From assembly GCA_965197905.1 (NCBI GenBank), contig CBDAOB010000004.1, positions 480,001 to 544,000 of the forward strand: 64,000 nt of DNA. Direction: 5' to 3'. Below, in pieces: positions 25,523-59,680 of this stretch (position 1 is the stretch's first letter; each line of letters starts with the position of its first letter). The stretch comes from Candidatus Latescibacterota bacterium (GTDB lineage Bacteria; Latescibacterota; UBA2968; UBA8231). A program made the position numbers and the translations under genes. Under the pieces are notes generated by a model. The model was not told the origin of the DNA. It saw only the letters and a program-made list of their open reading frames with translations, and searched no databases.

Positions 25523-25645
25523 TTACCCAGCCACATTCACCTGCTGCTCAGCGATATTAATCTGCACGTTCACGCCCAGCAGCTTCCGCACCTGAGCCAG
25601 CGACCATCATCCAATGTCCGTCGCACCTGCTTCTGCCATCATCTC
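25523..25645 (-). repeat. Element tail module, copy A (TerS-like stop + WSLAQVRKLLGVNVQINIAEQQVNVAG*)
   Basis: Homologous to 30820-30900, 54220-54307, 57075-57135 and 59629-59680. Confidence 0.85.
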
Positions 25646-25924
25646 GTTTAGAGAACGAACTGCTTCTTCTATCGACACCGTTGTCCGGTTCGAATTTTCG
25701 ATCTGCTGCTCTACCTGCTTCGGATACAGATCTCGGAACAGCTGGAAAAACACCCTGGGCTCGGTATCGAGCAGTTCCGCCAGCTTGATGCGGCCCAGAC
25801 CACCTTCGTTGTAGACTTCGATAAACTCCTGCTTCAGTGAAGTAAATCGATTTCTACTGCCCTTCCGGCGCCCCGGATTGCCAGCGGCAAACCTACCTTT
25901 TCCATCTCGTCCGTTCTCTGTCAT
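25607..25924 (-). CDS. DUF5681/terminase small-subunit-like protein
   Basis: GRDGKGRFAAGNPGRRKGSRNR N-terminal motif typical of small phage packaging-region proteins. Confidence 0.65.
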   Translation of the reverse strand: MTENGRDGKGRFAAGNPGRRKGSRNRFTSLKQEFIEVYNEGGLGRIKLAELLDTEPRVFFQLFRDLYPKQVEQQIENSNRTTVSIEEAVRSLNEMMAEAGATDIG

Positions 25925-25993
25925 CCGTACATCTCCGTTGTTTGCGGCATCGAGGAAGTCCCCTTTCGGTGCTGTTGCATTATCTCTCCCAGG

Positions 25994-26278
25994 TCAGTTT
26001 CGTTTCAGCCACGGTGCATGTGTGTGCCGAATGGGTTTTCCGAGGGAATCGCAATCCGAAAGGAAATGATGAAGATCTTGGTGTGCTTCCGGCCAGCACC
26101 GCGGAACATCCGGGTACCAGACGGTCCTTCCTGGTGGATCTCCCCTACCATAACGGATTTCCAGCGTAGGGATGCTCCCCCCAGGGGTTGGGATGCGTTT
26201 AATTTGCACGGAAACCCCCTTCAAACTGCGGAAATTTCCATCTTCGGGTGGTTTTGGTGTCTGATGATTCCAGAGAAG
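25994..26278 (-). pseudogene. 3' part of element hypothetical gene orfX (...WYPDVPRCWPEAHQDLHHFL...WLKRN*), copy 1
   Basis: ~270-bp homology with 31649-31913; differences are mostly synonymous in this frame. Confidence 0.65.
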
Positions 26279-26377
26279 CTAAGGCCCGACTTTAGCGCCC
26301 GCCTCAAGCTCTATCAGGCGCGGAAGCCCTATCGAACTGGGTCGGGGAGATAGAGAAACTCTCCCCCGCGAGGCTAA

Positions 26378-27232
26378 CTACTCTTCCAACTCGCCGGCGA
26401 GACGTTTGAGGTGATTCTCCCGGGGCTCATGAGCCCTTATCAAAGCAGCCCGGGGCACTTCGATGTGGGGCAACAACTCAGGGCCGGAGCGCACGAAGCC
26501 CTCGGCGAAATCGGTCCCCCCGCGCCAACCGAAGGATCCGGTCTGGATCTCTACCCGCTTGCGGCCGAAGGCCTCGCTTTGCGACTGGCTGGCGAACAGC
26601 ATTTCGGCCTGGATCCGTCGCTCCTTCCAGGCGGAGATGTCCACGTAAAAATCGATTTCATCCGGCTGGAAGTAGACGGCGGGATAATAGGTGGCGGCGA
26701 TCGTGTGAGGCGTCTGGGTGCTGCCAAAGTCCGGAATGCCCGCCAGGGCCTGCGCTTCCATGGTTGCGAACGCGGTTTCGAGGTGATCGTCGTGGCCGGC
26801 ATTCGTCAGGCGTTTAGGTCCATTCAGGAACGGGCTCTGCGGAACGAGGACGTCGGGGCGCACTTCCAGGATTATGTCCCTGAGCGCCTCGACTGCTGCC
26901 GGGGTTCTCTTGAACGGCTTATCGGGGAAGTCCAACACGCGGACATCGGCAATCCCGAACAGGGCGCAGACCTGGCCCAGCTCCTTCTTCTTGGTGGCCA
27001 TGTAGTCATCGCCGGACTGCTCGAGGACCGCGGGATCGCGCTCGGCCTCCGGCTTCAGCAGTTCGTCGTGGAGTTTCTCGTTGTGGGTGTGGCCGCCGCC
27101 GGTCACGGAGACCACGGTGACTTCGTCACCCATGGCCGCGTGGATTCCACACGTCCCCGAGCAGTGGGTGAAGTCGTGCGGGTGGGCGGTTATTACCAAA
27201 AACTTCAGCTTTTTGCGCTCGGCCACGGCCAT
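26378..27232 (-). CDS. PIG-L/LmbE family deacetylase
   Basis: AHPHD and HDDH motifs; AEGF near the C-terminus. Confidence 0.88.
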   Translation of the reverse strand: MAVAERKKLKFLVITAHPHDFTHCSGTCGIHAAMGDEVTVVSVTGGGHTHNEKLHDELLKPEAERDPAVLEQSGDDYMATKKKELGQVCALFGIADVRVLDFPDKPFKRTPAAVEALRDIILEVRPDVLVPQSPFLNGPKRLTNAGHDDHLETAFATMEAQALAGIPDFGSTQTPHTIAATYYPAVYFQPDEIDFYVDISAWKERRIQAEMLFASQSQSEAFGRKRVEIQTGSFGWRGGTDFAEGFVRSGPELLPHIEVPRAALIRAHEPRENHLKRLAGELEE

Positions 27233-27505
27233 TTCCTTTCGCTGTCGGGTGTCGGCAGCATGAACATATTTTCACACCGACCCAGAGTCAAAGATGCGCT
27301 GACCCGTAGGGCCGGGATTCATCGTCCACCATGGTCACGATGTAGCTCCGGTCACGTTCGAGACGTGCTGAAGGGTCGTAGCAGCCGAATGTGTATTCAG
27401 CGTCGACTCAAGTCGTCGCCAAGATCCGTCGAGTCGAATTGTCCCTTCTGGCTGCAGACGGCGACGACCAGCAGTTCGAAGTCCTCTTCCGTGGTGGCGA
27501 CGGCG

Positions 27506-28243
27506 CTACTGCATGACTTGCGGGTGCGCCTCCGCGGACGGTGGGGCCATGACGCGCTTCTGCTGTTCGGTCAATTCGCCGTAGAGCTCGAGATCGTAGA
27601 AGCTCTTCATCCAGGTGGAATGGCCGGGGCTGTACTTGTAGAGCAGAGTGCGGCGCTGGTGCCGGGCGCGCCAGGACATGGTGCCGTGAACGAGGGCTTC
27701 GGTGAAGATCAAGGCGTCTCCGGTCTTGGCTGGTGGCTGTCTCACGTAGTGGGCCGGACGTTCGAATCTGCGGACCTCTGCCGGGATGTACGCCATGAAG
27801 TTGGACTTGTGGCTGCCCGGTATGCAGGCGAAGCCGCCGTCTCCCTGGTTGGCGTCGGTCAGGAAGAAGGTGACGACGGTGAGCCCGTTGCGCATGACGC
27901 CATCGCGATAGCTATACCAGTGCGTGCCGCCCAGACCTGGTCCGCCGTGGAGGCCGCCGCGCTCATCCCCTTCATTCATTATGATGGCATAGTCGTGATC
28001 GATCCGGAAGGTGGGGCCGATCATCTCGACGAGGTAGGGTACGATGCGGGGGTGGTCGATGAGGTTTTTCGTGGCCTCGCCCCATTGACTGATCGTGTTG
28101 AAATCGTTGGAGGGGTCGTTGTCCCAGCCGTCGGCATGCTGGTCGACGAGGGCATTGAGCTTTTCCAATTCCCCCTTATTCAACACGTTCTCGATGACCA
28201 GATAACCTTCGAGGTCGAACTGGAACTTTTCGGCGTCTGTCAT
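27506..28243 (-). CDS. PhyH family dioxygenase
   Basis: FDLEGYLVIENVL, LHGG, CIPGSHKSN and EALVHGT motifs; AGGAG RBS. Confidence 0.9.
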   Translation of the reverse strand: MTDAEKFQFDLEGYLVIENVLNKGELEKLNALVDQHADGWDNDPSNDFNTISQWGEATKNLIDHPRIVPYLVEMIGPTFRIDHDYAIIMNEGDERGGLHGGPGLGGTHWYSYRDGVMRNGLTVVTFFLTDANQGDGGFACIPGSHKSNFMAYIPAEVRRFERPAHYVRQPPAKTGDALIFTEALVHGTMSWRARHQRRTLLYKYSPGHSTWMKSFYDLELYGELTEQQKRVMAPPSAEAHPQVMQ

Positions 28244-28457
28244 GGTAACGCTCCTGTGGAATTCGGCGAATTCGCGCGGAAAATTACCCTGGCCGTTTGA
28301 GAGTGTCAAGCAAGTGAGGGAGGCGCCCGAGCGCGGCGCCTGCGTTTCTATTGGAGGCAACAGGGAATGAAAATCACCGACGTAAGGTCCTTTCCAGCGC
28401 CGGGGCCTCGGCGAAGAAGACGATCGCTCGGGTCCAGCCGCTGAGGGAGATCGGACA

Positions 28458-28635
28458 ATGAGCAAGGACATCTGTTACGCCGACGCCACCGAGCTGGCCG
28501 AAGGGATTCGCACCAGAACCCTTTCCCCGATGGAGGTGCCGCGCGCCCACCTGGATCGCATCGAAGCCGTTAATCCAAAGATCAACGCCTTGGTCACTCT
28601 GGCCGACGATGCCCTGGAGCAGGCGCAAGAGGCAG
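28458..28635 (+). pseudogene. Amidase (GatA-like) N-terminal fragment
   Basis: DATELAEGIRTRTLSPMEV..AHLDRIEAVNPKINALVT, then homology is lost. Confidence 0.75.
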
Positions 28636-28699
28636 GCGCACTGTTTACATCGCCACTGTGGACCAGCACGAGTGCTTTGTGTTTTGCGGCTCTAAAAGT

Positions 28700-28893
28700 A
28701 AAGCAATGGATACCTATCTCTAATCGGTGAATGTGAACATGGAGATCGTGATAATTCGGAAGAACAAGGCCGTTCTTGATGCAGAAATATGTCCGTGGAG
28801 CAAAGTGGACGGCCATTCCTTATTATCAAACAGAGTCGAGTTCAATCTAAACCCCAACTGATTTTGATATGGGGAATACCCGCTAAATTACCT
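28700..28893 (+). repeat. ~190-bp repeat, copy 1 (shared with 60116-60300)
   Basis: Shared blocks TCTCTAATCGGTGA, GGAGATCGTGA, GTGGAGCAAAGTGGA, TTCAATCTAAA, CCAACTGATTTTGAT and AATACCCG. Confidence 0.8.
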
Positions 28894-28920
28894 GCACGGC
28901 GTTGACCGAGGTTGGAGATC

Positions 28921-29961
28921 ATGAAAACGCATCCTGAATTCGTCGATGTGGTGCCCGGTGACCAGACCAACATGCGCACCGGAGAGGCCGATATCGTCCA
29001 GAGCCAGGATGGCAGCCTGTTCATGGCCTACACCCACTTCCGTTCGTGGGAGGACGATGCGGCAGCCGAGATCCTCAGTCGCCGTTCCACCGACGGGGGT
29101 CGTTCGTGGAGCGAACCGCAGGTAGTCGTGGAAAACGAGGGTCGCAAGAACGTGGCGTCAGTCAGCATGCTGCAACTCAGGCCGGATCGTCTCTTCCTGT
29201 TTTATCAGCGTCAGCATTCGGAGCAGTCTTGCATAATCTGCTCCCGTCTTTCAACGGACGAGGGAAAGACCTTTGGTCCGGCGACGTTTCTGACCTCGGA
29301 AGACCGCTACTACTGTTTGTGCAACGACAGCGCCTTGCGACTTTCCGGTGGGCGTTTCGTTCTGCCCTATACCCTGAAAGTCGAACCCCCCGGTACGCCA
29401 ACAAGGTTAGAGGCCGGTTGCCTCTATTCGGATGACAACGGAGCATCGTGGCATTCGAGCAACACGGTGTTCGCACCCGAATCCGGAGCGATGGAGCCCA
29501 AGGTCGTCGAGCTCAAGGATGGTCGATTGTGGATGTTGCTGCGCACGGACCAGGGCACGCTTTACCAGGCGTATTCGGAAAATGGCGGCGAGCGTTGGAG
29601 CGAAACGGAATCTTCGGGCATCGCGGCGCCGCAGGCACCGTTTGTATTGCAGCGGATTCCGACAACGGGCGATATCATCCTCATTCGCAATCCGACCGTC
29701 GACCTGGAGCACCATCACCAGGGAATGCGCAACCCCCTCACCTGCACGATATCCACGGATGAAGGGAAGAACTGGCATTATTCGAAGGAACTGGAATCTG
29801 ACCGTTCCCTGGCTTACTGTTACGCCAGTTTAAGTTTGTTCGACGAAACCGCTGTTCTAAGCTATTACGTCGTACTCTTGGACAGACCGGCGGGGGACTC
29901 CACGGTGGGAGTCCATACCCTCCGGGTAACCCACGTGCCCGTGGACTGGTTTTATCACTGA
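28921..29961 (+). CDS. Sialidase-like BNR/Asp-box beta-propeller protein
   Basis: STDGGRSW, STDEGKTF, SDDNGASW, SENGGERW and STDEGKNW repeats. Confidence 0.88.
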   Translation: MKTHPEFVDVVPGDQTNMRTGEADIVQSQDGSLFMAYTHFRSWEDDAAAEILSRRSTDGGRSWSEPQVVVENEGRKNVASVSMLQLRPDRLFLFYQRQHSEQSCIICSRLSTDEGKTFGPATFLTSEDRYYCLCNDSALRLSGGRFVLPYTLKVEPPGTPTRLEAGCLYSDDNGASWHSSNTVFAPESGAMEPKVVELKDGRLWMLLRTDQGTLYQAYSENGGERWSETESSGIAAPQAPFVLQRIPTTGDIILIRNPTVDLEHHHQGMRNPLTCTISTDEGKNWHYSKELESDRSLAYCYASLSLFDETAVLSYYVVLLDRPAGDSTVGVHTLRVTHVPVDWFYH

Positions 29962-30078
29962 AGCGGCGTCTGCCGGCCTCAAGCCTTCTGGCGACTTCGT
30001 CTCTATCCACGATCGCGCACCTGGGCAAAGGCGCGGGCGATGCGCCATAACATGGGCTTCTAACCGAAGAGATGTACG

Positions 30079-30651
30079 AATCTGGCTCCGACTCTGACCC
30101 CCTACGTCGAAGCCTTTCTCGGCACAGAGCTGCGTCTGGGGTACGTGCACCTGCGGAACGCGGCTGGCAGCTACGATACCGGCTGGCACCGCGACGTGGG
30201 TGACAGCCGCCGCGACCTGCCGTACGAAGAAGAGATGAACCTGCTGAACGGGCCGATGACGGCGTTGCGCTGGCAGCTGGCCCTGATCGACCCCTGCTTG
30301 TGGCTCGTTCCGCACAGTCAGCGGCGCTACCGCACCGACGAGGAACGGGAAGCCCTCGTAGTCGACAGGCATATGGATATCGCCGGAATGGAGAACTTGA
30401 TGCTCAAGAGGGGGCAGACGCTGTTCTGGGATGGGAACACCATTCACCGGGGCATTCTGCCGCCGGCATTGAACGAGCGGCTGGTCCTGGCAGGCGGGCT
30501 GTGCAAATACCAGCGGGACGAGCCGCTGATGGATCTGGACGAGAGGTTCCGCTGGCGCATGGCCGACAACATCGGACTCGCCCTGCCCGACAAGGTGCGG
30601 CTCTGGTGGGAGCGCTGGCTGTCACTGCAGAAGGTCTCGGGGCCATGTTGA
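30079..30651 (+). pseudogene. 5'-truncated PhyH-like dioxygenase
   Basis: WHRD, LWLVPHSQRR and NTIHRG; in-frame stop upstream and no convincing start. Confidence 0.65.
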
Positions 30652-30729
30652 GGATCTTGCATCCGAGATCATTGATCGCTGGAGCGAATGCGGACCTCGA
30701 TCAAAACAGGCGCTCCGCAGACGACAGAC

Positions 30730-30769
30730 AGCCCTCGGTTAACTCAGGTTAGCCGGGGGCTTTTTCTTT
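30730..30769 (+). terminator. Intrinsic terminator
   Basis: AGCCCTCGGTTAAC-TCAG-GTTAGCCGGGGGCT followed by a T-rich tract. Confidence 0.75.
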
Positions 30770-30819
30770 GCCATGGTTACAGCCGAAGTATCTGCATGTG
30801 TGTCGCTACAGATCTTACT

Positions 30820-31192
30820 TTATCCAGCCACATTCACCTGCTGCTCAGCAATATTGATCTGGACATTCACGCCCAGCAGCTTGCGCACCTGCGCCAGAGT
30901 CTTGCACGCCGACAGAAACCGTCGGTGGCACCGTTCCTGCCATTTCTGATAGAACGCGTGTTTATCAATAAGTGCGAGTTGGAACTCTAGTTTGTCGAGG
31001 CACAGACCTACGCAGATCTCTACCCAGATTGCCATCAGCCTCTAACGCCTTCGGGGCTTCGGCGAAAACTACGCTCAAACGCATTGAGAGCGTCTTATCG
31101 CCCTTCTTGGCCTTGTCGTAAAGCTTCCGCACTTTCCGATGTTCGGCCTTGGTGAGCTCGTGTATCGACTTCTGAAGGCTGTTCTCACCCAC
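30820..31192 (-). pseudogene. Element gene orfB (..CHRRFLSACKTLAQVRKLLGVNVQINIAEQQVNVAG*), frameshifted or internally deleted; contains tail copy B
   Basis: The GTG start overlaps the orfA stop; N- and C-terminal halves lie in different frames. Confidence 0.65.
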
Positions 31193-31488
31193 GCCGTTTC
31201 CTCCATTCCCCTCGGTGATTGAAGAAGCCCGCACCTTCCAGTACCCGGGCTACCGCGGTCTTGCAAACAGCTTCGTGGTCCCTCATTTCACGCTCCATAG
31301 CCGCAATCTCTGCCTTCTCCTGCCTCCACGCCCTGCGCTCTTCCTCGCGCTGCTGACGCGCCTCAGCATCGAACCGACGCCTCCTGGCCCCGTATTCCAC
31401 CACCGATATACTCACGGATCTGGTGGCCATTTACACGGCGGGTACGGGTATAGTAGGGCCCACCGCGTTCCCTCATTTCCCAGGACAT
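31185..31488 (-). pseudogene. Element gene orfA (MSWEMRERGGPYYTRTRRVNG..EYIGGG / ..AGFFNHRGEWRKRRG*), frameshift near 31375
   Basis: Two frames join into one coherent basic and coiled-coil protein. Confidence 0.65.
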
Positions 31489-31650
31489 TGGCGGTCAACC
31501 CAGGCTCTGTTGTGTAGCTGTGTGGGTAGCTCCCAAGCTTTCGTCCCGATGCAGAGCAGCTCCTTTTTCGCGCTCTCCGCCCCCGCCAGAACCGGGGCAG
31601 CGGTAGCACTCCGCCTACCCCAGTGCCAGGGCCGGACAGTTTAGGGCCGG

Positions 31651-31913
31651 TCAGTTTCGTTTCAGCCACGGTGTATGAGCATGTCGGATTGGTTTTCCGA
31701 GGTTATCGCAATCCGCAAGGAAATGATGGAGATCTTGGTGTGCTTCCGGCCAGCACCGTGGAACATCCGGGTACCAGACGGTCCTTCCAGGCCGATCACC
31801 TCTTCCCTACCGGAGTTCCCATAGAGGTATCCTCCTTAGGTGTTGGGATGAGTCTAACTTCGACGGAGCCCCTCGAAACTGAGGAAATTTCCATCTTCGG
31901 GTGGTTTTGTGTC
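31651..31913 (-). pseudogene. orfX copy 2 (frameshifts and a TAG)
   Basis: Homolog of 25994-26278. Confidence 0.6.
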
Positions 31914-32074
31914 CCAACTCTACCTGGGGGTTGAACGATCTGATTCCCCAGTTCGGTGTTTAATGTGGACGGCACGCTATCAAGAGGGGAACGGTGGACT
32001 CCTGTTGGCCTGGTAAAGCGGCCGCTAACCTCTCGTTTGCTCATATTCGTTTAATCTCCACTGCTGCAGTTGCG

Positions 32075-32449
32075 CTATTTTGATCCAGACCTTTCAGGCG
32101 CCTCCAGTTCGCCTATTGCCTCCGCCAGCATCTCCTTAACCTCGAGCAATTGGTCCGGGGTATCGGCGTACCATAGCCGCAGGGGGTGAGCTGAACCGCC
32201 CAGATAACCCCAGCGTCTGAAGCCAACCGGTTCACCGCCAAGCACCAGCTCTTTCGCGTAAATCAAGACTTCGAGGTCGTCTTGATAGCCGAAGCGTTCA
32301 ATCAAGTCCACCGACGACAATCCCTGCGGTCCGGCTCCCCGCAGGATCTGAAGGAGTGCTTTTCTGGGGGCAACTCTTACCAAATCTCTAAATTCACACA
32401 TCGTTGGTGTTGGTTGGTATACCGCCCACATGACATACCGTAGCCCCAT
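32075..32449 (-). CDS. Hypothetical protein of the element remnant (possible winged-helix)
   Basis: ORF in tandem with neighbouring element ORFs; LLQILRGAGPQGLSSVDLIERFG. Confidence 0.4.
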   Translation of the reverse strand: MGLRYVMWAVYQPTPTMCEFRDLVRVAPRKALLQILRGAGPQGLSSVDLIERFGYQDDLEVLIYAKELVLGGEPVGFRRWGYLGGSAHPLRLWYADTPDQLLEVKEMLAEAIGELEAPERSGSK

Positions 32450-32451
32450 AT

Positions 32452-32763
32452 TCACTTCTTTTGGCCTCGAACAACCGCCAAAATCTGTGCTTTCTCCGAA
32501 GTCGATAGTCGATCCCATGCCTCCGCGACTTCAGCCAAACCTGCGGGCGGATTCTCGTACATACATGGTACATACTTTTCGTGCAAAGTTGTGTCTGGGT
32601 TGTGTTCGGGTTTTGCAGGGATTTGTTTTTTGAGGCCTTGAACGGGATTCCCTATCTTCTTTTTCTGTAATGGATTTGCAGAGTTCTGTCCGGCTTCTGT
32701 CGGAGAAGTGTCAGAATCGACAGTACCCTCGGAATGGGGTTCGAATCCCGGCACCCCGACCAT
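32452..32763 (-). CDS. ORF starting in the att core; possible integrase C-terminal tail
   Basis: Begins MVGVPGFEP (antisense tRNA end) and ends PAGLAEVAEAWDRLSTSEKAQILAVVRG. Confidence 0.4.
   Translation of the reverse strand: MVGVPGFEPHSEGTVDSDTSPTEAGQNSANPLQKKKIGNPVQGLKKQIPAKPEHNPDTTLHEKYVPCMYENPPAGLAEVAEAWDRLSTSEKAQILAVVRGQKK
32737..32763 (+). repeat. tRNA-Pro 3'-end duplicate (attR)
   Basis: GGGTTCGAATCCCGGCACCCCGACCAT, identical to 8458-8484. Confidence 0.92.
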
Positions 32764-32847
32764 TGTAAACCCTTGTGAGACACCCCCGCGCTAATCGTAG
32801 CGCGACCCGACTCATGGTGAGGTTGGTAGCCGCGCTGCCCCACTATT

Positions 32848-33855: not shown

Positions 33856-33873
33856 CTCGCCGCGAACCCGGTA

Positions 33874-34112: not shown

Positions 34113-34300
34113 TTGATTGCTCTAGACGAGCATGGGTGTATCGAAGCCGAGGTTGCCGCCCGAATGGAGTGGGTACCCATAGAGACGTTGCCAGGTGACG
34201 TTTTGTGTTTCAGCTCATACGTACCTCACAAGAGTGATGGCAACCATTCAACACACCCACGAAGAATCTTTACGTTAACGTATAGGAAAAATAAAGACCG
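34113..34300 (+). pseudogene. PhyH-family internal or C-terminal fragment
   Basis: PGDVLCFSSYVPHKSDGNHSTHPRRIFTLTY. Confidence 0.7.
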
Positions 34301-34376
34301 TTATCGACAGTTGCGCCGAGGGTCCGAGCCGGTCTAGTGCGGCGTTTGTCGGGACATTTGCAACGTGTGGTCGGCT

Positions 34377-34850
34377 GGCCATGAGAAACGGCCGCGAAGC
34401 GCTAGTGCGGATCTATTTCGGGCACCTGAACGCCGCTTTTGAGCAACCGCTCAAAACGGGTAGACATACCTCGCCCTCAGCCAATCAGGCGTAGTCGAAT
34501 TGCGGTTGGGGATCTGGGCGCGAGGGTGCGATGCCGGCGGCGCCCGCGCCGGGTGGTGCCGTCCGACCACGGGGTTTTCAAAGTGTAGGTCAGGGTATCG
34601 GCGTCGAGCGGGCGCAAGCGGCCTGAAGCCAGGGGCGGGCGCATCACGTAGCGGCACAGTTGTTCCAGGCGGCTGCGGTGGTCGGCGGCAATTCGGGTAG
34701 CTGCATGCAGCGAAAACCCGCGGGCGGCGAAGCACAGGGGACCGGCGCAAACGCCCTGCTGCGGATCGACCAGGCGACGCCGGACCCGTTGCCCGACGCG
34801 TTCACCGGTAGTACCTTCCTCGAGCAGGCCGCGGCGAATATTTGGTTGTT
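34377..34850 (-). mobile_element. IS91/ISCR-family transposase remnant with 3' non-coding end
   Basis: GFSLHAA..RLEQLCRYVMRPPLA..LKTPWSDGTT, then IAPSRPDPQPQFDYA*. Confidence 0.85.
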
Positions 34851-34920
34851 GTGAAAACGAGAAATGCGACGAGAGGCGTCTTTTTAGGGAACTCGCGTCC
34901 TTACGAAAGGAGTGCCAACG

Positions 34921-37920
34921 GTGGACTTTTCTCATTTGCTTCGGGGGTGCTTGCCACGTCGGTCGCTGTGCGCCCTGGTTCTTGCAACAACAGCCTGGGC
35001 CCCAAGTGGGGAGGCGCAGGAGTACCCCTGGAAACATGTAAACGACGCCCAGTCGGCGCGGCCCTTTCTGCGCTGGGAGCGGCCCACCTACTCGAACTAC
35101 GCGCACCAGCATTTCGCCAACTACCAAGACCACTCCGCCCCCTACGAAGATTCGCCGCGGGCGTACTACGGATCGATGGGGAATTATCTCATTTCGGGGT
35201 ATTCGTTGTACGAATGGAGGGAAGAACGCACTCCTGGTCATGAGTGGACCAGCACCATTTTCAAACATTCCGACAGGGGCTCAGGCCCCTGGGTGACCGC
35301 TTTCGACAACATGGTCATGGCCAGGGACGGCTACGGGGACTGGGGCTACTCCCTGGTCGCCGGGGACGGGCTGATAGCGCGTTTCTCACCATTGGTGCTG
35401 TCCATGGTCGACCTGAACGGGGTGCGCATGGATGTGGCGGTTCCGAATCTGCGTTTTACCGGTATCGCGTCGCGCATCGAACGCCCCAAGATCTACCTCG
35501 AGAGCCCGGAGAAATGGGCGTTCGAGAGGTTCCACCTCGCCGACGATTCCACCCTCTTGCTGGGGGGGCGCGCCCTGTTCGACCTGAGCCGTCTACAGCT
35601 GGGTTTCAGTGGCGCCAACATTCATATCTATCGCAGCACCGAACCGGGCAACAGCCTCAAGGGTCGATTGCGCCCGGGACAGCCCGCGATCGAATGGCTG
35701 CTGGTCCGGTTCTCCGATGACTCCCCTGAGGACGGTATCGCGGGGGCGCTGGTGCAGGAAGTACAACTGGTGGTGAACGGGGAGACGCGCCCCGACCTGG
35801 TGCCCCGCGTCGTGTCTCATCAGGAAGGAATAACACCGCAGGTGGGTCGTTTTTCTTCGGCCACAGGCCGTTTTCAGCCGGTCGACTACACCAACACCGG
35901 CGGTTCCAATCTCTTCTACCACGGACGCCGGGATCTACCCCTCTTCTCGGACTATCTCTACCGCCTCGACCACGACGCCGACATCGACATAAGCGATGTC
36001 GCCAACATACCCGGGTTGGTGAGCGGAATCTCCGTACTCCGACCGGGTGACCTCGTGCGCGCCGACGGTGACGATCAGGTGATCTACCTCTTCGACATGA
36101 CCGGGGAACAGACGATAGAGTCGGTGAAGGTGGAGGCCCTGGTCGGCAACGACTTTCGGGTCGACGTGGCGCACCTGAACACCGTCAATACCCGTGGTCG
36201 CACCTACCATCAGCAGTTCCAGAGCACCTTCTATCGCACCGTAGCGCGGTCGAAGGGGAACGTACAGGATGTAGGCAATCTGAAACGGCGGCGGTTCGCC
36301 GTGAGCGAGGACACGGGCCTCTTCACTTACGGCACCGATCTCCGCCTGGCGCTGCCGGGTATGGAGGTGACTGCGGAGTACGCCGGCTCAGCCCGGTATG
36401 GCCGCTATCCCGCACTCATGGAAGGGGAGAACGACTTTCGCGCCGGACCGCGTTCGGTGGAGCGGGGCTCGGCCTTCTTTGTCAACGCCAGCCACTGGTT
36501 GTCCCGCGGCCGGATCGGGGGCGAGTACTTCCGCATCGGTCCGAGCTTCCGCACTGAGATGCGCAACTACCTAAGCGAATTCGGCCTCGAAAGTACCAAC
36601 CTGCAGCATATAACCAACAGGACCGTCTACTGGGACCTGGTGCAAGACAACGACGATGGCGATCGCTTCTCCGACAAGCGGGCGGGCAATCTGCCCGGGT
36701 TTCCCAACGATGCGTCCTCGCGACGAGACAATCGAGGCTCTAACCGAGACGACGACGATCTGAATGGCGTCACCCTGGGTCAGGACGCCGACAACGACGG
36801 CTTTCCCGACGTCAACCGGAACGGCGACCTGGTTCCCGATTTCGAAGAGCCGTTCCTCATGTACGAGGTGGAGCCGAACAAGTATGTCTACGGCCTGGAT
36901 CGGAACAACAACAACGAGCCAGACCTACGGGAGGACGATAACGATCCAGATTATCCGTACGACCTCGATAACAAAGGGTTCCACCTCTTCGGGCAGGTGG
37001 ATCTGAGTCGGCACTGGTCACTCGCCGTGGGACACTACGACGTGGAGCAGATCGCCGGCGCCGGCCGCAACCGATCCACTTATTCGCTGCTCACCTACCA
37101 ACGGTTGGGTAGGAATTGGCTGCCCCAACTGCTCTTCGAAAATAATCTCCGGCGCGTGCGGGACGATATTCCGGACGAATACCTCGCCCTGGATGTGCTT
37201 CCGACGCGGACATTCGATTATTACTCTGGAGGACTCAGGGCGGAACGCGGCGGAGGTGTCGGCAGGCTGCTGGACGGCCCCCCGATCTTCGGAACTCGCT
37301 TCGTGCCCGACCTGGTGGAATACCAGGACAGCTTCGTGAACGAGATGTACCTGGAAGCCCGTGTGATGCCGGTACCGGGGTTGAACCTGCACCAGAAGAT
37401 GCGCTGGCGCTTGAATTGGCAGCAAGGTGGGCAGTTGCGCCCGGGTATTTTCCAGCTCGAGCGCCGGGTCGATCTGTGGACTTGGGTGAGCCGGATCGAC
37501 TACCCCCTGCAGCTGGGACGCGTGACCATCATACCACAGTACAAATACATGCTCTTCCGGCTGTACGACCAGGAAAGGGACCGGGGCATCGAGTTCGAGA
37601 CCCGATCTATTCCGATCCTGCGCGTCGAATATCCCTTCTTGCCCCGCACCGTCCTCCGGGCCGGCTTCCAGGGAGTCGGTCCGTTGCCGTACCGATCAAA
37701 GGACCGCCTCGCCGGCCGGAACAGTTTCGAGCAGCGGACCGCCTTCCTGACCGCGACGAACCGGTCGAAATACTTCGGCTACGACCTGGTCACTGTCGTC
37801 GGTCTCAAGAGAGACCGACGCACCTTCGACGACCCGGGTCAGGAGCTCAACGAGTTCGATGTCTGGTCCTTCTTCGTTCGTGGGTTAATCGGATTTACCG
37901 AACACGGCCGGCCGATATAG
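34921..37920 (+). CDS. Large exported protein of unknown family, paralog 1 (putative outer-membrane protein with acidic repeats)
   Basis: Signal peptide, DxDxDG-rich segment, amphipathic C-terminal strands; AAGGAG RBS. Confidence 0.85.
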   Translation: MDFSHLLRGCLPRRSLCALVLATTAWAPSGEAQEYPWKHVNDAQSARPFLRWERPTYSNYAHQHFANYQDHSAPYEDSPRAYYGSMGNYLISGYSLYEWREERTPGHEWTSTIFKHSDRGSGPWVTAFDNMVMARDGYGDWGYSLVAGDGLIARFSPLVLSMVDLNGVRMDVAVPNLRFTGIASRIERPKIYLESPEKWAFERFHLADDSTLLLGGRALFDLSRLQLGFSGANIHIYRSTEPGNSLKGRLRPGQPAIEWLLVRFSDDSPEDGIAGALVQEVQLVVNGETRPDLVPRVVSHQEGITPQVGRFSSATGRFQPVDYTNTGGSNLFYHGRRDLPLFSDYLYRLDHDADIDISDVANIPGLVSGISVLRPGDLVRADGDDQVIYLFDMTGEQTIESVKVEALVGNDFRVDVAHLNTVNTRGRTYHQQFQSTFYRTVARSKGNVQDVGNLKRRRFAVSEDTGLFTYGTDLRLALPGMEVTAEYAGSARYGRYPALMEGENDFRAGPRSVERGSAFFVNASHWLSRGRIGGEYFRIGPSFRTEMRNYLSEFGLESTNLQHITNRTVYWDLVQDNDDGDRFSDKRAGNLPGFPNDASSRRDNRGSNRDDDDLNGVTLGQDADNDGFPDVNRNGDLVPDFEEPFLMYEVEPNKYVYGLDRNNNNEPDLREDDNDPDYPYDLDNKGFHLFGQVDLSRHWSLAVGHYDVEQIAGAGRNRSTYSLLTYQRLGRNWLPQLLFENNLRRVRDDIPDEYLALDVLPTRTFDYYSGGLRAERGGGVGRLLDGPPIFGTRFVPDLVEYQDSFVNEMYLEARVMPVPGLNLHQKMRWRLNWQQGGQLRPGIFQLERRVDLWTWVSRIDYPLQLGRVTIIPQYKYMLFRLYDQERDRGIEFETRSIPILRVEYPFLPRTVLRAGFQGVGPLPYRSKDRLAGRNSFEQRTAFLTATNRSKYFGYDLVTVVGLKRDRRTFDDPGQELNEFDVWSFFVRGLIGFTEHGRPI

Positions 37921-37940
37921 TTCGATACGAGAGGAACAGG

Positions 37941-49654: not shown

Positions 49655-49666
49655 GAAGGGCAGATT

Positions 49667-50425
49667 GTGGGCGACGGGGTCTTCAGTTTCGCGTTCATCA
49701 CCGATCCTCAAATCGGAATGGACAGGGCCTCGGGCTTGCATGAACCCGGGTCTGACAAAAAGCGTCTGGATCGCGCCATCACCTACGTAAACGAGAGTGG
49801 GGTCGACTTTGTTGTGTTCGGCGGCGATCAAATAGAGAACCCGAACGACGAGTACACAGATTTACAACTGGATGACCTGCAGCAGTCGCTGTCCGGCTTG
49901 ACCGTCCCGTACTACGGCGTTGTCGGAAATCATGAGCAGGGGGATCCGGCGCAGCGTTGGAAATACGTTGAGCGCGGACTCCCGGTCCGCTTCTCGCTCT
50001 CCCATAAAAACGCCTTCCTGGTTGGTATCAATGCCTGGTGGCTTAGGGGGGAGTTCGGCGATGAGTACGCCGAGAAGGAGCGGGATTATTTGGCGAGCCA
50101 GTTGTCTCAGGTATCATCGGACTGCAGGCACCGTTTCGTCGTCATGCACTGGCCTCTGTTCAATATTCATCCGCAGGAAGAGGACACCTACTGGAATATG
50201 TCCAACAGAAACAGCCTTATCGATCTATTCAGGAGGCATGAGGTTTCGTGTGTTCTCAGCGGTCACTGGCACCAAGACATCGATGCACGCTGGCATGGCA
50301 TCAGCCTGGTTACGAGCGTGGGAACCGCCGGAGCTCTTCAGTATCCCGAAGAGCTCTCTTTCAAGGTCGTAACCGTGTTTGACGACGGGTGGTCGGTCCG
50401 CCGGGTATCGGTCGGACGTAGCTGA
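49667..50425 (+). CDS. Calcineurin-like metallophosphoesterase (CPPED1-like)
   Basis: DPQIG, GGD, GNHE, MHWP and GHWH motifs. Confidence 0.88.
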   Translation: MGDGVFSFAFITDPQIGMDRASGLHEPGSDKKRLDRAITYVNESGVDFVVFGGDQIENPNDEYTDLQLDDLQQSLSGLTVPYYGVVGNHEQGDPAQRWKYVERGLPVRFSLSHKNAFLVGINAWWLRGEFGDEYAEKERDYLASQLSQVSSDCRHRFVVMHWPLFNIHPQEEDTYWNMSNRNSLIDLFRRHEVSCVLSGHWHQDIDARWHGISLVTSVGTAGALQYPEELSFKVVTVFDDGWSVRRVSVGRS

Positions 50426-50438
50426 CTTGAGGCGAGCC

Positions 50439-53369: not shown

Positions 53370-53752
53370 TCAGTGGACCGGTGGGCCCTTGGTCCGCATC
53401 CAGTCGCGCTATTTGCTTTGGTGCCGGTCGGCTGATTATATTAGTGGCCGGATGTACGAAGAAAATTCTGCGACCCGGTCGCAGATTAACAACCGCAACG
53501 ACGTCGGGCTGCAGCAAGAAACCGGCGCATACCGAAAGGAGGTGGTCCATTGAGTAGTACATCAACCACAGGGAGGTGGATCACCTGATAGCAGCCGGGT
53601 GGTTAACCACCTGGACTGGTGGACGTGAATCCCGAGTAGGGATTTTCGTCTATTGGTTTTAGCCGGGCGTGCCCCAGTGGCACGTCCGGCTTCTGTGTTC
53701 TAATGTCACGGGGAGTGAAGGCAGCTCCGATCGTCAGGTCGGTGCCCGGCGC

Positions 53753-54169
53753 TTACCTACCTTCGAAATCGACCCCCGCCGCTTCGAGCACTTCCGGGGT
53801 GATGAAGATCGGTGCGTTCCCCCGTTTGGCCATTACCATACCGTCGCTGGGACGACAGTCGATCAACAGCGGTTGTGCTCCATGCTCGATACTGAGATAG
53901 GCGAAAAAGGTGTTTTCGCGCAGCGTGTGGATCACCAGCTGGCGCACCGCTGCGTTTCTCTTCCCCATAACCGATTCCATGATGTCGTAGGCTCCCGAAT
54001 GCTCGGGTTGCTTGCCTTGTATCGCCAGGTGCAGCGAGTGTGCCTCGGAGGCTCCAATAAGGATCGGAACTACGCGCGGCTCTGGCCCTTTGAGGAACAC
54101 CGCGACTACTTCCACATGGGGTTGAAGCTCGATGATGTTGACAGATATGAGGTGGTTGCCGGCGGTCAT
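53753..54169 (-). CDS. Bifunctional nuclease (DUF151/BFN) family protein
   Basis: VPILIGASEA, FFAYL and IDCRPSDG..APIF motifs. Confidence 0.85.
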   Translation of the reverse strand: MTAGNHLISVNIIELQPHVEVVAVFLKGPEPRVVPILIGASEAHSLHLAIQGKQPEHSGAYDIMESVMGKRNAAVRQLVIHTLRENTFFAYLSIEHGAQPLLIDCRPSDGMVMAKRGNAPIFITPEVLEAAGVDFEGR

Positions 54170-54187
54170 GGTGTAGCAACAAACAAC

Positions 54188-54226
54188 TGGCGCACCCAGA
54201 AGGACTCGAACCCTCAACCTAATGGT
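54188..54226 (-). repeat. Orphan tRNA 3' fragment (probably Arg; attR-like)
   Basis: ACCATTAGGTTGAGGG-TTCGAGT-CCTTCTGGGTGCG-CCA; anticodon absent, so the isotype is inferred. Confidence 0.75.
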
Positions 54227-54307
54227 CGCTGGCTCAGGTGCGCAAGCTGATGGGCGTGAAGGTGCAGACCAAATATAGCTGAGTAAAAGGTGAATGTAGC
54301 TGGTTGA
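54220..54307 (+). repeat. Element tail module, copy C (degenerate)
   Basis: TAATGGTCGCTGGCTCAGGTGCGCAAGCTGATGGGCGTG...GTGAATGTAGCTGGTTGA. Confidence 0.8.
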
Positions 54308-56851: not shown

Positions 56852-57074
56852 GTGGGGGCGGTAACAGACACTCCGCCTGGATCGTCCTGGCGGCCGAGTA
56901 CGGACCGTGTATTTGGTGTCCTGCGCCGCCGATCCCTCGGACCAGAACGAGTAGAGGCTCGCCTGGCGCAAGGTGAAACGCAGTTGCACTGCCTTCGCCT
57001 CATGCGGCGATATTCCCATCCTGCCAGACCACCTCGGCGCGGGGCTGTCCCCAAAAGCGGTGCAGACACAGGGT

Positions 57075-57135
57075 AATGGCGGAATATGCGGCGGCGGACG
57101 TGGATAATGGTCGCTGGTGCGGAAACTGATGGGCC
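57075..57135 (+). repeat. Element tail module, copy E (end of TerS-like gene + truncated tail)
   Basis: ATGGCGGAATATGCGGCGGCGGACGT-GGATAATGGTCGCTGG..TGCGGAAACTGATGGGC aligns to the reverse complement of ~25575-25640. Confidence 0.65.
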
Positions 57136-57302
57136 ATCTCGCCTGGGGTTCAATATCTCTAACTCAACTAATAACACTTAGGGATATTCGCTTTACGCCG
57201 CCGCGTGGAAAGGCGCTCGCGAGTCGCGTTGGGAAGGCCGTGGGCCCTGATCACGGATCTTGAGATCGGGTGCCCACGTACGGGTCCCTGCACCCAGGTA
57301 TC

Positions 57303-58127
57303 TCATGCAAGGTGGGGGATCTCAGCCACAAAGAGGCTCCCCGATCCGATGGTGCTGGTGACCTCCACGCCCCCACCCAAAAGCCTGCCAAACTCTCGAA
57401 CAATGGACAGGCCCAGACCAGTACCGCCATGGACGCGCGTGCTACTGGAGTCCGCCTGCGTAAAGGGCTCAAACACACGCTCGATCTGCTCGTCGGTCAT
57501 GCCCACTCCAGTGTCCGATACCAGGAAACGCAGCGACGGACCGCCATCGCCTTCGACTTGCTCGATGCGCAGTTCAATGTTCCCCTGTTCGGTAAACTTG
57601 CAAGCATTGGACAGAAGATTCAGCAGCAATTGGCGCAGCTTTGCGCAGTCAGTGCGAATTTGGGGCAGGTGGGACGCCCGAACAATCTCAAATGCATTGC
57701 TGTTGGCCTTGGCCAACTGCGTTGTGGTCGCCTCCACGCTCCTAAGCAGGACATCCAGATCAAGCGGCTGGCAGTCCAGCTCCATGTGGCCAGCTTCTAT
57801 CTTGGACAGGTCTAGCACTTGATTGATCAGAGACAGCAGGTCCTGCCCGGAATTCTTGATCTTGATCAGGTCCGCCGCCGCATCACTGAACTCACCCGCG
57901 TTGGCCTCCTCCTCCATCATTTCGGCGTAGCCAATGATGGCGTTCAGGGGCGTGCGCAGCTCATGACTCATGGTGTTCAAGAACTCCGATTTTGCCTGGG
58001 TTGCCTTCAGCAGACCCTGATTTGCCAGAAAGAGCGCACGCGTTTTCTCCTCGGCGATTTTCTCTGCGGCCTTGCGAGCCTGGACCTCTCTCTTGAGACG
58101 TCGTTTGAGCAACTCGATGGAATCCAT
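57303..58127 (-). CDS. Soluble sensor histidine kinase (HisKA + HATPase)
   Basis: MSHELRTPLNAIIG, NLLSNACKFT, DTGVG and GGTGLGL motifs. Confidence 0.93.
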   Translation of the reverse strand: MDSIELLKRRLKREVQARKAAEKIAEEKTRALFLANQGLLKATQAKSEFLNTMSHELRTPLNAIIGYAEMMEEEANAGEFSDAAADLIKIKNSGQDLLSLINQVLDLSKIEAGHMELDCQPLDLDVLLRSVEATTTQLAKANSNAFEIVRASHLPQIRTDCAKLRQLLLNLLSNACKFTEQGNIELRIEQVEGDGGPSLRFLVSDTGVGMTDEQIERVFEPFTQADSSSTRVHGGTGLGLSIVREFGRLLGGGVEVTSTIGSGSLFVAEIPHLA

Positions 58128-58132
58128 TGGAA

Positions 58133-58684
58133 TCAGCCGGCACCGCTTCGACGGAGGCTGAAACGAACTTCCGACCGGTGGCCATCTGACAGTTCCTCCT
58201 CTTGGACGATCATCGGCTCGGAGAAATGTGCAAGGCAGCCCTGAATCAAACCGGCCGCAAGGTCGCCCAGACAGCGAGGAGACTTGTAGACAAGCTCCAG
58301 CCGCTCGTCGCCTGTCCGGGTCACGGCGAACCTGGGCAACTCCGCGTCCGGGTAGAGCTTCTTGACCTCCACATGAATCTTGGCATCAATTCCTTCAAGG
58401 AAGTCGAAAGCCGAAGTGACACCCACAAAGAAGCTCGGGTAGGCGCTCGCAAAGCGACCGAAAAGGTGCTCTCCAAAGGCACGAACCAAAGCGGGCGCTG
58501 GAGTCCCCGTTTCTTGGGCCAGGGCCGCAACCAGGTTTGTCATTTCCTTGGCATCGTAAGTGCCGATGGCAGTGTAGGCACCACCTGACGGAAGGTCGCA
58601 GCGGTCAATCAGAGTCTCGGTAAGCTCGGGAGAAAAGTGGCTGTCCACCATTTCCATAAATTCCGTGAACACAACGCCCTTCAT
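58133..58684 (-). CDS. Heme NO-binding (H-NOX/HNOB) protein
   Basis: MKGVVFTEF, IHVEVKKLYPDAELP and YKSPR (YxSxR). Confidence 0.92.
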   Translation of the reverse strand: MKGVVFTEFMEMVDSHFSPELTETLIDRCDLPSGGAYTAIGTYDAKEMTNLVAALAQETGTPAPALVRAFGEHLFGRFASAYPSFFVGVTSAFDFLEGIDAKIHVEVKKLYPDAELPRFAVTRTGDERLELVYKSPRCLGDLAAGLIQGCLAHFSEPMIVQEEELSDGHRSEVRFSLRRSGAG

Positions 58685-58868
58685 TCGTCACTCCTTTCGT
58701 TGACCGGCCAGTTCGAGGAACCGCACTACACCACGATTCCGCCTGACCCAAAGTAATCAAGCGCACCTTGACGCGCCAAAAGCTGCAGTCTCGGAACAGA
58801 TACAATCCCTCGTGAGGGAGTCAACGTATTACACGAGGTGGAATAGGCCCATTTCTGTAGTCCATGTC

Positions 58869-59235
58869 GGCGTTGTTGCATGGCTCGCCACAGGTGCATT
58901 TTCCCGTTTGGTCACTCGCGTCACGCCACAATCTTCACTGATTCGGGCATGCCAAGTGCCGTCATCCGATTGATGACATTGACGGCGATCAACGCCTCCC
59001 GCTTCTGGGACTCGCGATGCTGGGCTCGGAGACGATCTGCGATAATGCGTTTGTATCGGTACATCCCGTTCCCGGCGCGAGCCTGGTAGTGAGCGCCCGA
59101 CTCCTTGCGTCATTGTCGTCGACCGACTTCGCCAATCCTCTCGATCGCGTCGTCGGTTGGCACCGAAGTCCCTTGGCTCGCGAATCCGCGGTGGCCGTCT
59201 TTTTCGGCGGGATCACGATCTTGATGTTGGCACCT
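58869..59235 (-). mobile_element. IS5-family (IS903-like) 3' remnant with terminal inverted repeat
   Basis: IVIPPKKTA / RAENGMYRYKRII..NVINRMTALGMP; GGCGTTGTTGCAT IR at 58869. Confidence 0.85.
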
Positions 59236-59628
59236 GTTCCTCTATGAAGAACCGAGAGAACTGACAAAAGGGTCTTCTGTCGGTTTTGTCGGTGCTTTCT
59301 TATAGGTATCTACGAATTTTTCAAGCTGGTTCATCCACTTACCCCGCAATTTCGGCCACCAGCAGGTCGATCTACTGAACTTCATCAATGGTGATTGCAA
59401 TCGGGGTGACAGACTCGTCCGTGCTCCGTGCGACCAACTGCCTCAAAGTGGACAGGCCTGGCTTCACAAAGCACTGTCATACGAGATGTTAGGCGAAAAC
59501 GAAAACTCACTGAAGGCTGCGAGAGGTCGCTTCAACTCGAGCCCGGTAAGCCGACTGCGATCGAGCTTAGAGAAACCATGTTGATGGCGCTAGGCTATAT
59601 CCTCTACTTCGTGCAGCTGTTCGGGGGT

Positions 59629-59680
59629 ATGGGCGTACCAGATCAATATCGCTGAACAGCAGGTGAACGTGGCTGAATAA
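59629..59680 (+). repeat. Element tail module, copy D (QINIAEQQVNVAE*)
   Basis: CAGATCAATATCGCTGAACAGCAGGTGAACGTGGCTGAATAA. Confidence 0.8.

What the first reader, a model, noticed from the sequence alone, without database searches (positions are those of the whole stretch)
25523..59680. One short element tail module recurs five times, always antisense to the associated tRNA sequence
Seen: segments encoding part or all of WSLAQVRKL(L/M)GVNVQINIAEQQVNVAG* occur at 25523-25606 (-), 30820-30900 (-, inside orfB), 54220-54307 (+), 57075-57135 (+) and 59629-59680 (+). Three copies start at the same junction, (TGA/TAA)TGGTCGCTGG. In two of them the preceding bases are the end of the TerS/DUF5681-like gene (MAEAGATDIG* vs MAEYAAADVG*, the latter with a 1-nt gap). 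The copies in the tRNA-Pro island read toward that tRNA. The copies beyond the minus-strand tRNA fragment at 54188 read toward where its parent tRNA should lie. Inference: related elements inserted serially at different tRNAs, each bringing cargo. The ~85-bp tail survives after the genes decay, possibly because it is a cis-acting site (packaging, nicking or recombination) of a non-autonomous cargo-capturing element family, analogous to tycheposons or PICIs.
Basis: partly seen in the sequence, partly recalled or inferred. Interest (0 to 1): 0.8.

Follow-up and report, generated by a model that had tools for sequence, protein, structure and literature searches.

The report
Leftover gene ends in tRNA islands
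The repeated 80-base piece is the last scrap of an unnamed gene from small mobile elements that insert at tRNA genes; it mostly looks like a scar left beside the useful cargo genes when the element decays, not a working signal.

Summary
The five copies are real. They are the last 7-26 codons of orfB, an unannotated gene (7,000 clusters at 50% identity) of small tRNA/tmRNA-integrated elements that also carry integrase, primase and DUF5681-like genes, here in a Ca. Latescibacterota genome. All 8 clear copies in this genome lie within 23 kb downstream of a tRNA or tmRNA. Seven are antisense and one is sense; relatives show both orientations, so 'always antisense' fails. The shared junction occurs in 3 of 23 copies and is an inherited three-part scar containing 13 bp of a cargo gene. 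A dedicated cis site is not supported: differences follow codons (40 synonymous, 28 not), no sub-region is kept in every copy, there is no fold or promoter, and other genes leave the same stubs. Best reading: stubs left next to the terminator or promoter of retained cargo after element cores are deleted or displaced. Tail alleles and right flanks are reassorted, so the tail also serves as a crossover point for cargo exchange. Serial insertion at tRNAs is supported. The overall process is known from tycheposon islands; the orfA-orfB family itself appears undescribed.

The parts
8406..8483 (+). tRNA-Pro(TGG), target and proximal end of the first island
   Evidence: ARAGORN, Rfam; its last 27 nt are repeated at 32737-32763
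25523..25600 (-). m1: last 26 codons of orfB, peptide intact
   Evidence: 6 synonymous, 0 other differences from the majority sequence
25601..25613 (-). 13-nt scrap of the 3' end of a DUF6785/DUF6784 cargo gene; it supplies the apparent stop of the upstream gene and the shared junction
   Evidence: in G002 the same fusion goes on for the gene's last 19 codons and into the next operon gene, 79% identical over 207 nt to G000 C5:833774-833572
25614..25924 (-). DUF5681-like (TerS-like) gene, truncated at its 3' end by the fusion
   Evidence: Pfam DUF5681 E 0.019, under the cut-off; Atlas feature score 0.95 to a DUF5681 cluster and phage proteins for homolog P0265; homologs have other C-termini
25992..26261 (-). 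3' part of an unnamed element gene (orfX), 83% identical to 31649-31913
   Evidence: no Pfam family
30730..30761 (+). intrinsic terminator of the convergent cargo ORF 30145-30651, 59 bp from the orfB stop
   Evidence: 14 pairs, T tail; 19 copies in selected loci of relatives, 4 with a tail beside them
30820..31190 (-). orfB, internally deleted and frameshifted; m2 is its last 81 nt
31188..31488 (-). orfA, frameshifted; overlaps the orfB start; the pair is conserved in relatives
31649..31913 (-). second copy of the orfX 3' part
32078..32449 (-). orfC, unnamed element gene; its first half is also in the tmRNA island
   Evidence: 65% over 43 aa
32452..32736 (-). att-adjacent arm; 72% aa identical to the frame that continues an integrase C-terminus through the att in the tmRNA island
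   Evidence: phrog_1 integrase E 3.7e-9 for L001:19326-19970
32737..32763 (+). att duplication of the tRNA-Pro 3' end; the next 20 nt match the arm that follows tRNA-Pro(CGG) on C5, so it is probably a junction between tandem insertions
34280..34968 (-). Y2 (IS91-family) transposase remnant and its downstream end, a separate repeat
   Evidence: Pfam Y2_Tnp E 7e-8; 13 copies of the end in G000; the label 'ori end' is recalled, not from a call
54188..54219 (-). att duplication of the tRNA-Arg(TCG) 3' end, clipped where it meets m3
   Evidence: G002 keeps a longer att at the same gene and has no tail there
54220..54307 (+). m3: 9 nt of the cargo-gene scrap plus the tail, with a 1-nt insertion and a nonsense codon
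54320..54505 (+). upstream region of a cargo gene family, beginning 13 bp after the m3 stop; found elsewhere without a tail
57075..57134 (+). m4: 3' scrap of the DUF5681-like gene, junction, and about 21 nt of tail
59629..59680 (+). m5: last 43-52 nt of orfB; shares its right flank with the sense copy at C5:1563126

Best explanation
The repeat is a passive boundary scar. Steps: (1) small integrative elements carrying orfA-orfB insert at tRNA/tmRNA 3' ends, one after another, each with cargo placed just downstream of orfB [att duplications, element genes and cargo are shown; the order of events is inferred]. (2) Site-specific integration fixes the orientation for a given element type, hence the shared antisense direction in this genus [inferred]. 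(3) While an element is alive, selection on orfB stops rearrangements at its stop codon, giving the fixed right end and codon-shaped differences [pattern shown, cause inferred]. (4) The core is then lost, by deletions or by displacement when a newer core-plus-cargo piece recombines in (homology-facilitated illegitimate recombination). The loss stops short of the terminator or promoter of the retained cargo, so a stub of variable length stays [pattern shown; deletion against displacement not resolved]. (5) Stub-plus-cargo blocks move on between islands as passengers, sometimes by crossing over in the tail. The stub has no selected function of its own.
For: Left ends are spread over at least 14-250 nt from the stop and no part of the tail is in every copy: m4 covers consensus 8-30, m5 40-81, G002:1023k 34-68, G002:5661k 67-81. 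In 11 short copies, 40 differences are synonymous and 28 are not, against 26% synonymous expected; third positions 40/216, second 10/220 (binomial 1e-8, rows not independent), with nonsense and frameshift damage on top. Right flanks are cargo control regions: a terminator beside m2 that G002 keeps with only 14 nt of tail, and a cargo gene's upstream region 13 bp after m3. In 4 of 13 relics tested the left junction lies 0-7 nt after the stop of a co-oriented ORF of 60 or more codons (null 6.9%, p 0.01). Other genes leave the same 3' stubs before retained cargo: a DUF6785 gene's last 19 codons, a cysteine-motif element gene at C4:562791, the DUF5681-like end. Genome-wide control: of 76 isolated single-hit relics, 22 touch a gene's 3' end (2.0 expected) and 16 the 5' end (2.9 expected). 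The pattern matches the island-accretion model of Hackl et al. and the displaced 3' ends described by Kirchberger et al..
Against: The tail is kept at 8-9 places against 2 for the rest of orfB in G000, and 8 of the short relics begin 56-78 nt from the stop, more clustered than plain erosion would suggest (read, not tested formally). G001:C111 and G018:C356 differ at 27 of 115 nt up to 7 nt before the end of the last codon, yet at only 2 of 1,500 nt beyond it: a crossover within a few bases of the gene end is not predicted by erosion. At least five unrelated right flanks begin within 10 nt of the stop. The genome-wide control rests on a home-made gene caller and includes repeats that overlap gene ends. 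No complete element with both att sites, an intact integrase and orfA-orfB was found, so the parent's gene order is pieced together.
Confidence: 0.62

Rival explanations
1. The tail is a recombination hub: as the best-conserved 80-120 bp shared by all element lineages and sitting right before the cargo, it is the preferred crossover point for RecA-type exchange or for homology-facilitated illegitimate recombination. Cargo swapping and unequal crossing-over between co-oriented tails are then the main reason for the many copies, with no dedicated recombinase.
For: All four combinations of two tail types and two right flanks occur: m2 and G001:C111 share 59 of the last 60 nt but not the flank; G001:C111 and G018:C356 share the flank (99/100) but only 53 of 66 tail bases; m2 and G002:3777k share 94/100 flank and 55/66 tail. 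The shared left junction is joined to different right flanks in m1 and m3. Only the last 105-120 nt align between lineages at DNA level. Co-oriented arrays with one cargo block between tails occur in both window islands and in G002.
Against: The longest identical stretches between tail types are about 14 nt and the inferred crossover window in the clearest case is 6 nt, short for homologous recombination. Exchange at a tail swaps flanks but does not by itself add copies. Both genomes in the clearest pair are fragmented assemblies. [quoted passage not shown]
Confidence: 0.22
2. The tail holds a dedicated cis site: orfB is a divergent small-terminase-like protein with its packaging site in its own 3' end (scattered cuts give scattered left ends and packaging runs into the cargo and toward the tRNA), or a site-specific crossover lies at the stop codon.
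For: orfB follows the HTH and primase genes, the slot of terS in PICIs (L053; PICI order). Its model ends in a long helical hairpin. Four copies of residues 48-175 score 0.71 against a best control of 0.00 (mark reached by 20 of 30 solved pairs and 1 of 23 single chains; runs agree in at least 82% of contacts, pLDDT at least 75; four copies and my own alignment are unlike the calibration), with two different faces in contact as in a ring. Fixed right end, variable left end, and 7 of 8 copies pointing at the tRNA fit directional packaging; pac cleavage is imprecise. One crossover maps to the last 6 nt.
Against: No sub-region is shared by all copies and differences follow codons. Left neighbours are mostly co-oriented element parts, att arms or stops of upstream genes, as deletions give. 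Terminase small subunit is matched by only 2 of 86 members, best E 0.02. The elements carry a separate DUF5681-like gene. No unusual fold (z -1.06 to +0.27) and no promoter. That pac lies inside terS in P22 and SaPIs is recalled, not read here.
Confidence: 0.1
3. The tail is itself a non-autonomous transposon end (MITE-like, or a rolling-circle origin used by the IS91-family transposase present in these islands).
For: IS91-family ends show the same fixed-right, variable-left pattern and are common (13 in G000); three flank a tail-bearing block in G002; 4 of 8 G000 copies have one within 9 kb.
Against: No terminal inverted repeat, hairpin or target duplication is seen; the tail is the end of a protein gene unrelated to Y2 transposases; 4 of 8 copies are 20-174 kb from the nearest such end; copies are confined to tRNA islands.
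Confidence: 0.04
4. The tail is kept as a translated peptide, by read-through from the DUF5681-like gene or as a small ORF.
For: In m1 the tail is in frame behind the TGA and its peptide is intact.
Against: The TGA comes from an out-of-frame cargo-gene scrap; m3, m4, m5 and the tmRNA copy carry nonsense, frameshift or missense damage.
Confidence: 0.02

Closest known systems
Tycheposons and tRNA-seeded additive islands of Prochlorococcus (Hackl et al., 10.1101/2020.12.28.424599; parts 1-3 of 6 of the text read)
   Same: Serial integration at tRNA/tmRNA 3' ends, partial tRNAs between tandem insertions, integrase plus primase/helicase, metabolic cargo, degenerate remnants scattered through the island.
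   Different: The integrase in the G000 tmRNA island reads outward to the tmRNA, not inward; orfA-orfB is not among the hallmark genes named in the text I read; integrase clade not tested; the profiles are in supplements that I could not see.
Phage-inducible chromosomal islands (components as in PMC10085698; passages read)
   Same: Order HTH regulator, primase, small genes, then a late gene followed by accessory cargo (L053); a DUF5681/TerS-like gene in the G000 lineage.
   Different: No capsid-morphogenesis gene, TerS identity unproven, no helper phage known, no complete element found; the local copies are dead.
Sequential displacement arrays of V. cholerae T6SS effector-immunity modules and Rhs orphan tips (PMC5361080; passages read)
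   Same: Co-oriented arrays in which the 3' end of a displaced gene stays in front of the retained downstream gene; proposed mechanism is homology-facilitated illegitimate recombination.
   Different: Here the displaced gene is a mobile-element gene and the retained genes are metabolic cargo, often convergent; plain deletion explains the data as well.
IS91/ISCR rolling-circle ends (definition recalled)
   Same: Fixed right end with variable left truncation; present in the same islands.
   Different: The tail has no hairpin, is not downstream of a Y2 transposase and is a protein-coding gene end.

Membership tests
Tycheposon | site-specific integrase targeting a tRNA/tmRNA | tested here: met
   phrog_1 integrase E 1.9e-29 beside the tmRNA (L001:269-2428, fused in frame to a helicase remnant) and att duplications; no integrase remains in the two window islands
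Tycheposon | integrase of the tycheposon-specific tyrosine recombinase clade | not tested
   no tycheposon integrase sequences were fetched and no tree was built
Tycheposon | shared tycheposon hallmark gene profiles | not testable with these tools
Tycheposon | [quoted passage not shown] | tested here: not met
   in the one island with an integrase next to its target, it reads toward the tmRNA; one case only
Tycheposon | adaptive cargo | tested here: met
   rhamnosidases, sialidase-like, PhyH, deacetylases, DUF6785 and others in the islands; adaptive value is assumed
PICI | integrase | tested here: inconclusive
   present in the G000 tmRNA island; not recognised in L053, the least decayed relative (405-aa ORF without a family)
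PICI | AlpA/MerR/Stl-type regulator | tested here: met
   HTH_17 E 6e-9 in L053 and 1.6e-14 in L056; not found in the window copies
PICI | primase-replicase | tested here: met
   primase families in L053 and L001, DUF3987 in L059 and L056, D5-type in L063
PICI | small terminase subunit | tested here: inconclusive
   DUF5681-like gene under the Pfam cut-off, Atlas 0.95; orfB has no consistent TerS match
PICI | capsid morphogenesis gene | tested here: inconclusive
   none recognised in the ORFs scanned; elements are incomplete and several ORFs have no family
PICI | induction and packaging by a helper phage | not testable with these tools
   needs an experiment or virion reads
Cis-acting site (pac, nick or att type) | a core motif kept in all functional copies and conserved regardless of codon position | tested here: not met
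   non-overlapping relics and third-position bias
MITE / IS91-type end / integron attC | terminal inverted repeats, stable single-strand hairpin or target duplication | tested here: not met
   fold z-scores -1.06 to +0.27 for both strands of m1 and m2; no duplication in the flanks by inspection; no Rfam match

The most novel reading that the evidence does not exclude
orfA-orfB is the hallmark packaging module of a very large, undescribed family of satellite-like integrative elements of Planctomycetota, Latescibacterota, Chloroflexota and others. orfB is a ring-forming, small-terminase-like protein whose own 3' end is the packaging or crossover site. That site stays active in trans after the genes die, so relic tails keep launching transfer of the cargo downstream of them and act as docking points where new cargo is swapped in, building the tRNA islands of these bacteria.
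Probability: 0.1. Interest if true: 0.8.

Novelty: new variant of a known kind. Interest (0 to 1): 0.33.

Why it matters
As a scar the repeat is ordinary, but useful: it marks and orients past insertions in the cargo islands of an uncultured phylum and shows how stubs and junctions are inherited. The by-product of more value is orfA-orfB: a family of about 7,000 clusters at 50% identity without a Pfam or PHROG model, tied to integrase, HTH and primase genes at tRNAs in the loci seen here. It could serve as a marker for satellite-like elements that current detectors miss. If the tail proved to be a packaging or crossover site that works in trans, it would give a direct mechanism for how flanking cargo enters tRNA islands, which the tycheposon work leaves as a hypothesis.

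Tried and rejected
Fold searches with the orfB model gave nothing specific: Foldseek PDB and BFVD had no match at E 0.001 or better, VIA-align best Z 9.2 to generic helical hairpins; no PDB sequence match; absence there does not exclude TerS. No orfB match in 50,697 phage records; viral contigs gave 0, 0 and 1 loci; one plasmid of 72,556. The metagenome pattern scan gave 1 locus, so no intact parent of this lineage was found. Laid contigs of 4 runs showed no joint that reads as a circle; only the best-supported 15 of 39 joints were shown and contigs drop rare forms, so this is no evidence of absence; the one joint touching the tail (25578 to 32783) fits the C5 sense locus. Five hits in four genomes (G005, G010, G020, G024) were 25-30-nt chance matches inside other genes and were dropped. 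My first idea that the six bases before the tail were a tRNA-Pro att remnant, and my second that they were the native flank of the DUF5681-like gene (note 1), were both overturned. The idea that m5 is followed by an IS91-type end was dropped. A 16-nt match at C4:63859 was not counted. Earlier-findings look-ups returned nothing. Paper searches listed no paper on this gene pair or on Latescibacterota islands, but an unnamed gene cannot be searched by words and I saw only listings for most.

Full report
1. Observation. The five segments are present as described. Against the whole genome (G000, 6.69 Mb, 5 contigs; window = C4:480001-544000) BLASTN finds the same sequence at three more places: C4:1319775-1319845 (-), C5:1392890-1392964 (+) and C5:1563126-1563181 (+), E 1e-14 or better, plus a weak 73% match at C3:12265 (E 0.008). 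The organism is a Ca. Latescibacterota by the names attached to relatives of the same class.

2. What the sequence is. It is the 3' end of orfB. The window's copy (30820-31190) and the C5 copy are both broken by internal deletions and follow a broken orfA. Whole orfA-orfB pairs occur in relatives. A profile of 86 homologs finds 7,000 clusters at 50% identity among 1.84 billion proteins, 5,204 at E 1e-10 or better; nearest Atlas clusters are unnamed and mostly Planctomycetota or Thermomicrobiota. No Pfam or PHROG family is matched by more than 8 of the 86 members at E 0.5. The model (mean pLDDT 89) is helical with a long hairpin at 96-155 and a low-confidence end; four copies are predicted to pack through the hairpin (0.71 against 0.00, limits given under the third explanation). 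In the phylum, 8 of 168 genomes match the profile; at DNA level 4 of 41 relatives hold real copies.

3. The elements. Neighbours of orfB in relatives are tRNA genes, HTH_17 genes, primases (DUF3987, D5-type, AAA) and recombinases. In G000 the tmRNA island runs: tmRNA, integrase fused to a helicase remnant, primase pieces, about 12 kb of cargo, tail, DUF5681-like gene, half of orfC, att. The tRNA-Pro island of the window repeats these parts between the tRNA and a 27-nt att at 32737-32763. No locus examined had both att sites, an intact integrase and orfA-orfB together.

4. Placement and orientation. All 8 clear G000 copies lie 94 bp to 22.3 kb downstream of a tRNA or tmRNA 3' end, in 5 islands; 12.6% of the genome lies within 25 kb downstream of one of 48 genes (6 of 54 ARAGORN calls were dropped as spurious). 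For the 3 copies outside the window the chance is about 0.002. Seven are antisense; the copy behind tRNA-Pro(CGG) is sense. In G002, 2 of 4 loci are antisense next to a tRNA, one is 83 kb and one 173 kb from the nearest listed tRNA (150 of 170 candidates scored). In G028 (two loci) and G162 orfB is sense to the tRNA, in G094 antisense. Orientation is therefore a property of the element type, as site-specific integration would give.

5. The shared junction. It is found in 3 of 23 copies tabulated (9 from G000 counting the weak one, 14 from elsewhere), all in the window. In G002 the DUF5681-like gene is fused at the same base to the last 19 codons of a DUF6785 cargo gene and the next operon gene. 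The window's junction is that fusion cut back to 13 nt and joined to the tail. So m1, m3 and m4 descend from one composite scar, and the apparent stop of the TerS-like gene is borrowed. At m3 the att-Arg was clipped as well: G002 keeps a longer att at the same gene, without a tail.

6. Is it a cis site? (b) Conservation follows codons: 40 synonymous and 28 other differences in 11 short copies, 26% expected; third positions 40/216, first 19/217, second 10/220. (c) Relics do not overlap in a common core. (d) No fold, promoter or RNA family. (e) No circle junction seen in contigs, a weak test.

7. Why the end survives. What lies beyond the stop is cargo control sequence: a terminator beside m2, seen 19 times in loci chosen for it, 4 times with a tail and once with only 14 nt of it; a cargo gene's upstream region beside m3. 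On the left, 4 of 13 relics start 0-7 nt after the stop of a co-oriented ORF of 60 or more codons (null 6.9%, p 0.01; the three shared-junction copies, five long copies, one contig-edge copy and the 14-nt relic were not in this test). Other genes leave the same stubs. With a home-made gene caller, 54 of 162 isolated short intergenic relics touch a gene's 3' end and 44 its 5' end (4.5 and 6.5 expected, many being repeats); after keeping single-hit genes only, 22 and 16 of 76 (2.0 and 2.9 expected). Gene-end stubs of 30-150 bp are thus common in this genome.

8. Results against the plain-scar reading. Tail types and right flanks are reassorted in all four combinations, and in one pair the switch lies within 6 nt of the gene end (27 differences in 115 nt before, 2 in 1,500 after). 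At least five unrelated flanks start at the stop. Eight short relics begin 56-78 nt from the stop. orfB sits in the terS slot and is predicted to self-associate. These keep the recombination-hub (0.22) and cis-site (0.10) readings alive.

9. Comparison with what is known. The islands work like the tRNA-seeded additive islands of Hackl et al. (10.1101/2020.12.28.424599, parts 1-3 of 6 read); the arrays of co-oriented stubs work like the displaced 3' ends of Kirchberger et al. (PMC5361080, passages). Membership in tycheposons is not claimed (integrase direction not met in the one case; clade and profiles untested), nor in PICIs (components from PMC10085698, passages; TerS, capsid gene and helper unproven). 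Passages of PMC9006064 and PMC12597102 were read for pac packaging. All other papers were seen as listings only; no supplements were read, and the tycheposon profiles there may include this gene pair.

10. Verdict. Observation confirmed; interpretation partly supported. A decay scar of an apparently undescribed family of tRNA-integrated, satellite-like elements: new variant of a known kind, interest 0.33.

Noticed in passing
window 34280-34968 (-); 13 places in G000; L100 (G002) three tandem copies: IS91-family transposase remnants whose downstream ends survive in many copies, 98-100% identical and in tandem around cargo in G002, suggesting recent rolling-circle shuffling of island cargo.
   Followed up: partly
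G000 C4:1320337-1320920 (-), L001/L079; window 32452-32762: An integrase C-terminal frame stays open through the tmRNA att into a 100-codon extension, as if the attachment site lies inside the integrase gene; the extension is what remains next to the att in the window.
   Followed up: partly
window 30718-30780; L105-L112 (G001): The terminator after m2 is part of a short repeat with at least 15 copies in G001, often preceded by a shared stretch with a promoter-like motif facing a divergent gene.
   Followed up: partly
window 8727-8766 and G000 C4:485266-485298: Further partial tRNAs (Glu 3' part just after tRNA-Pro; Val fragment downstream of tRNA-Val), marking older insertions.
   Followed up: no
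window 34912-37920, 50379-53369, 60142-63258: Three paralogs of a 1,000-residue protein with only a weak SlpA_C match; the family has dozens of copies in G002.
   Followed up: no
window 17189-24260 and 48053-54219 against G002: Island blocks 93-98% identical to G002 lie at distant places there, several bounded by partial tRNAs, so whole cargo blocks move between islands.
   Followed up: partly
L035 760-1695 (G028:C70), P0002: orfA and orfB are fused in one frame, a hint that the two proteins act together.
   Followed up: no
L062 2464-2676, L016, G000 C4:562791-562925: 3' end of a cysteine-motif element gene without a PHROG family; it precedes the tail in two loci and a cargo gene in a third, inside the tRNA-Arg(ACG) island.
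   Followed up: partly
window 57303-58684 (-): Haem-NO-binding gene followed by a histidine kinase, carried as cargo between m4 and m5.
   Followed up: no
window 6162-6527 (+): RNase P RNA, class A.
   Followed up: no
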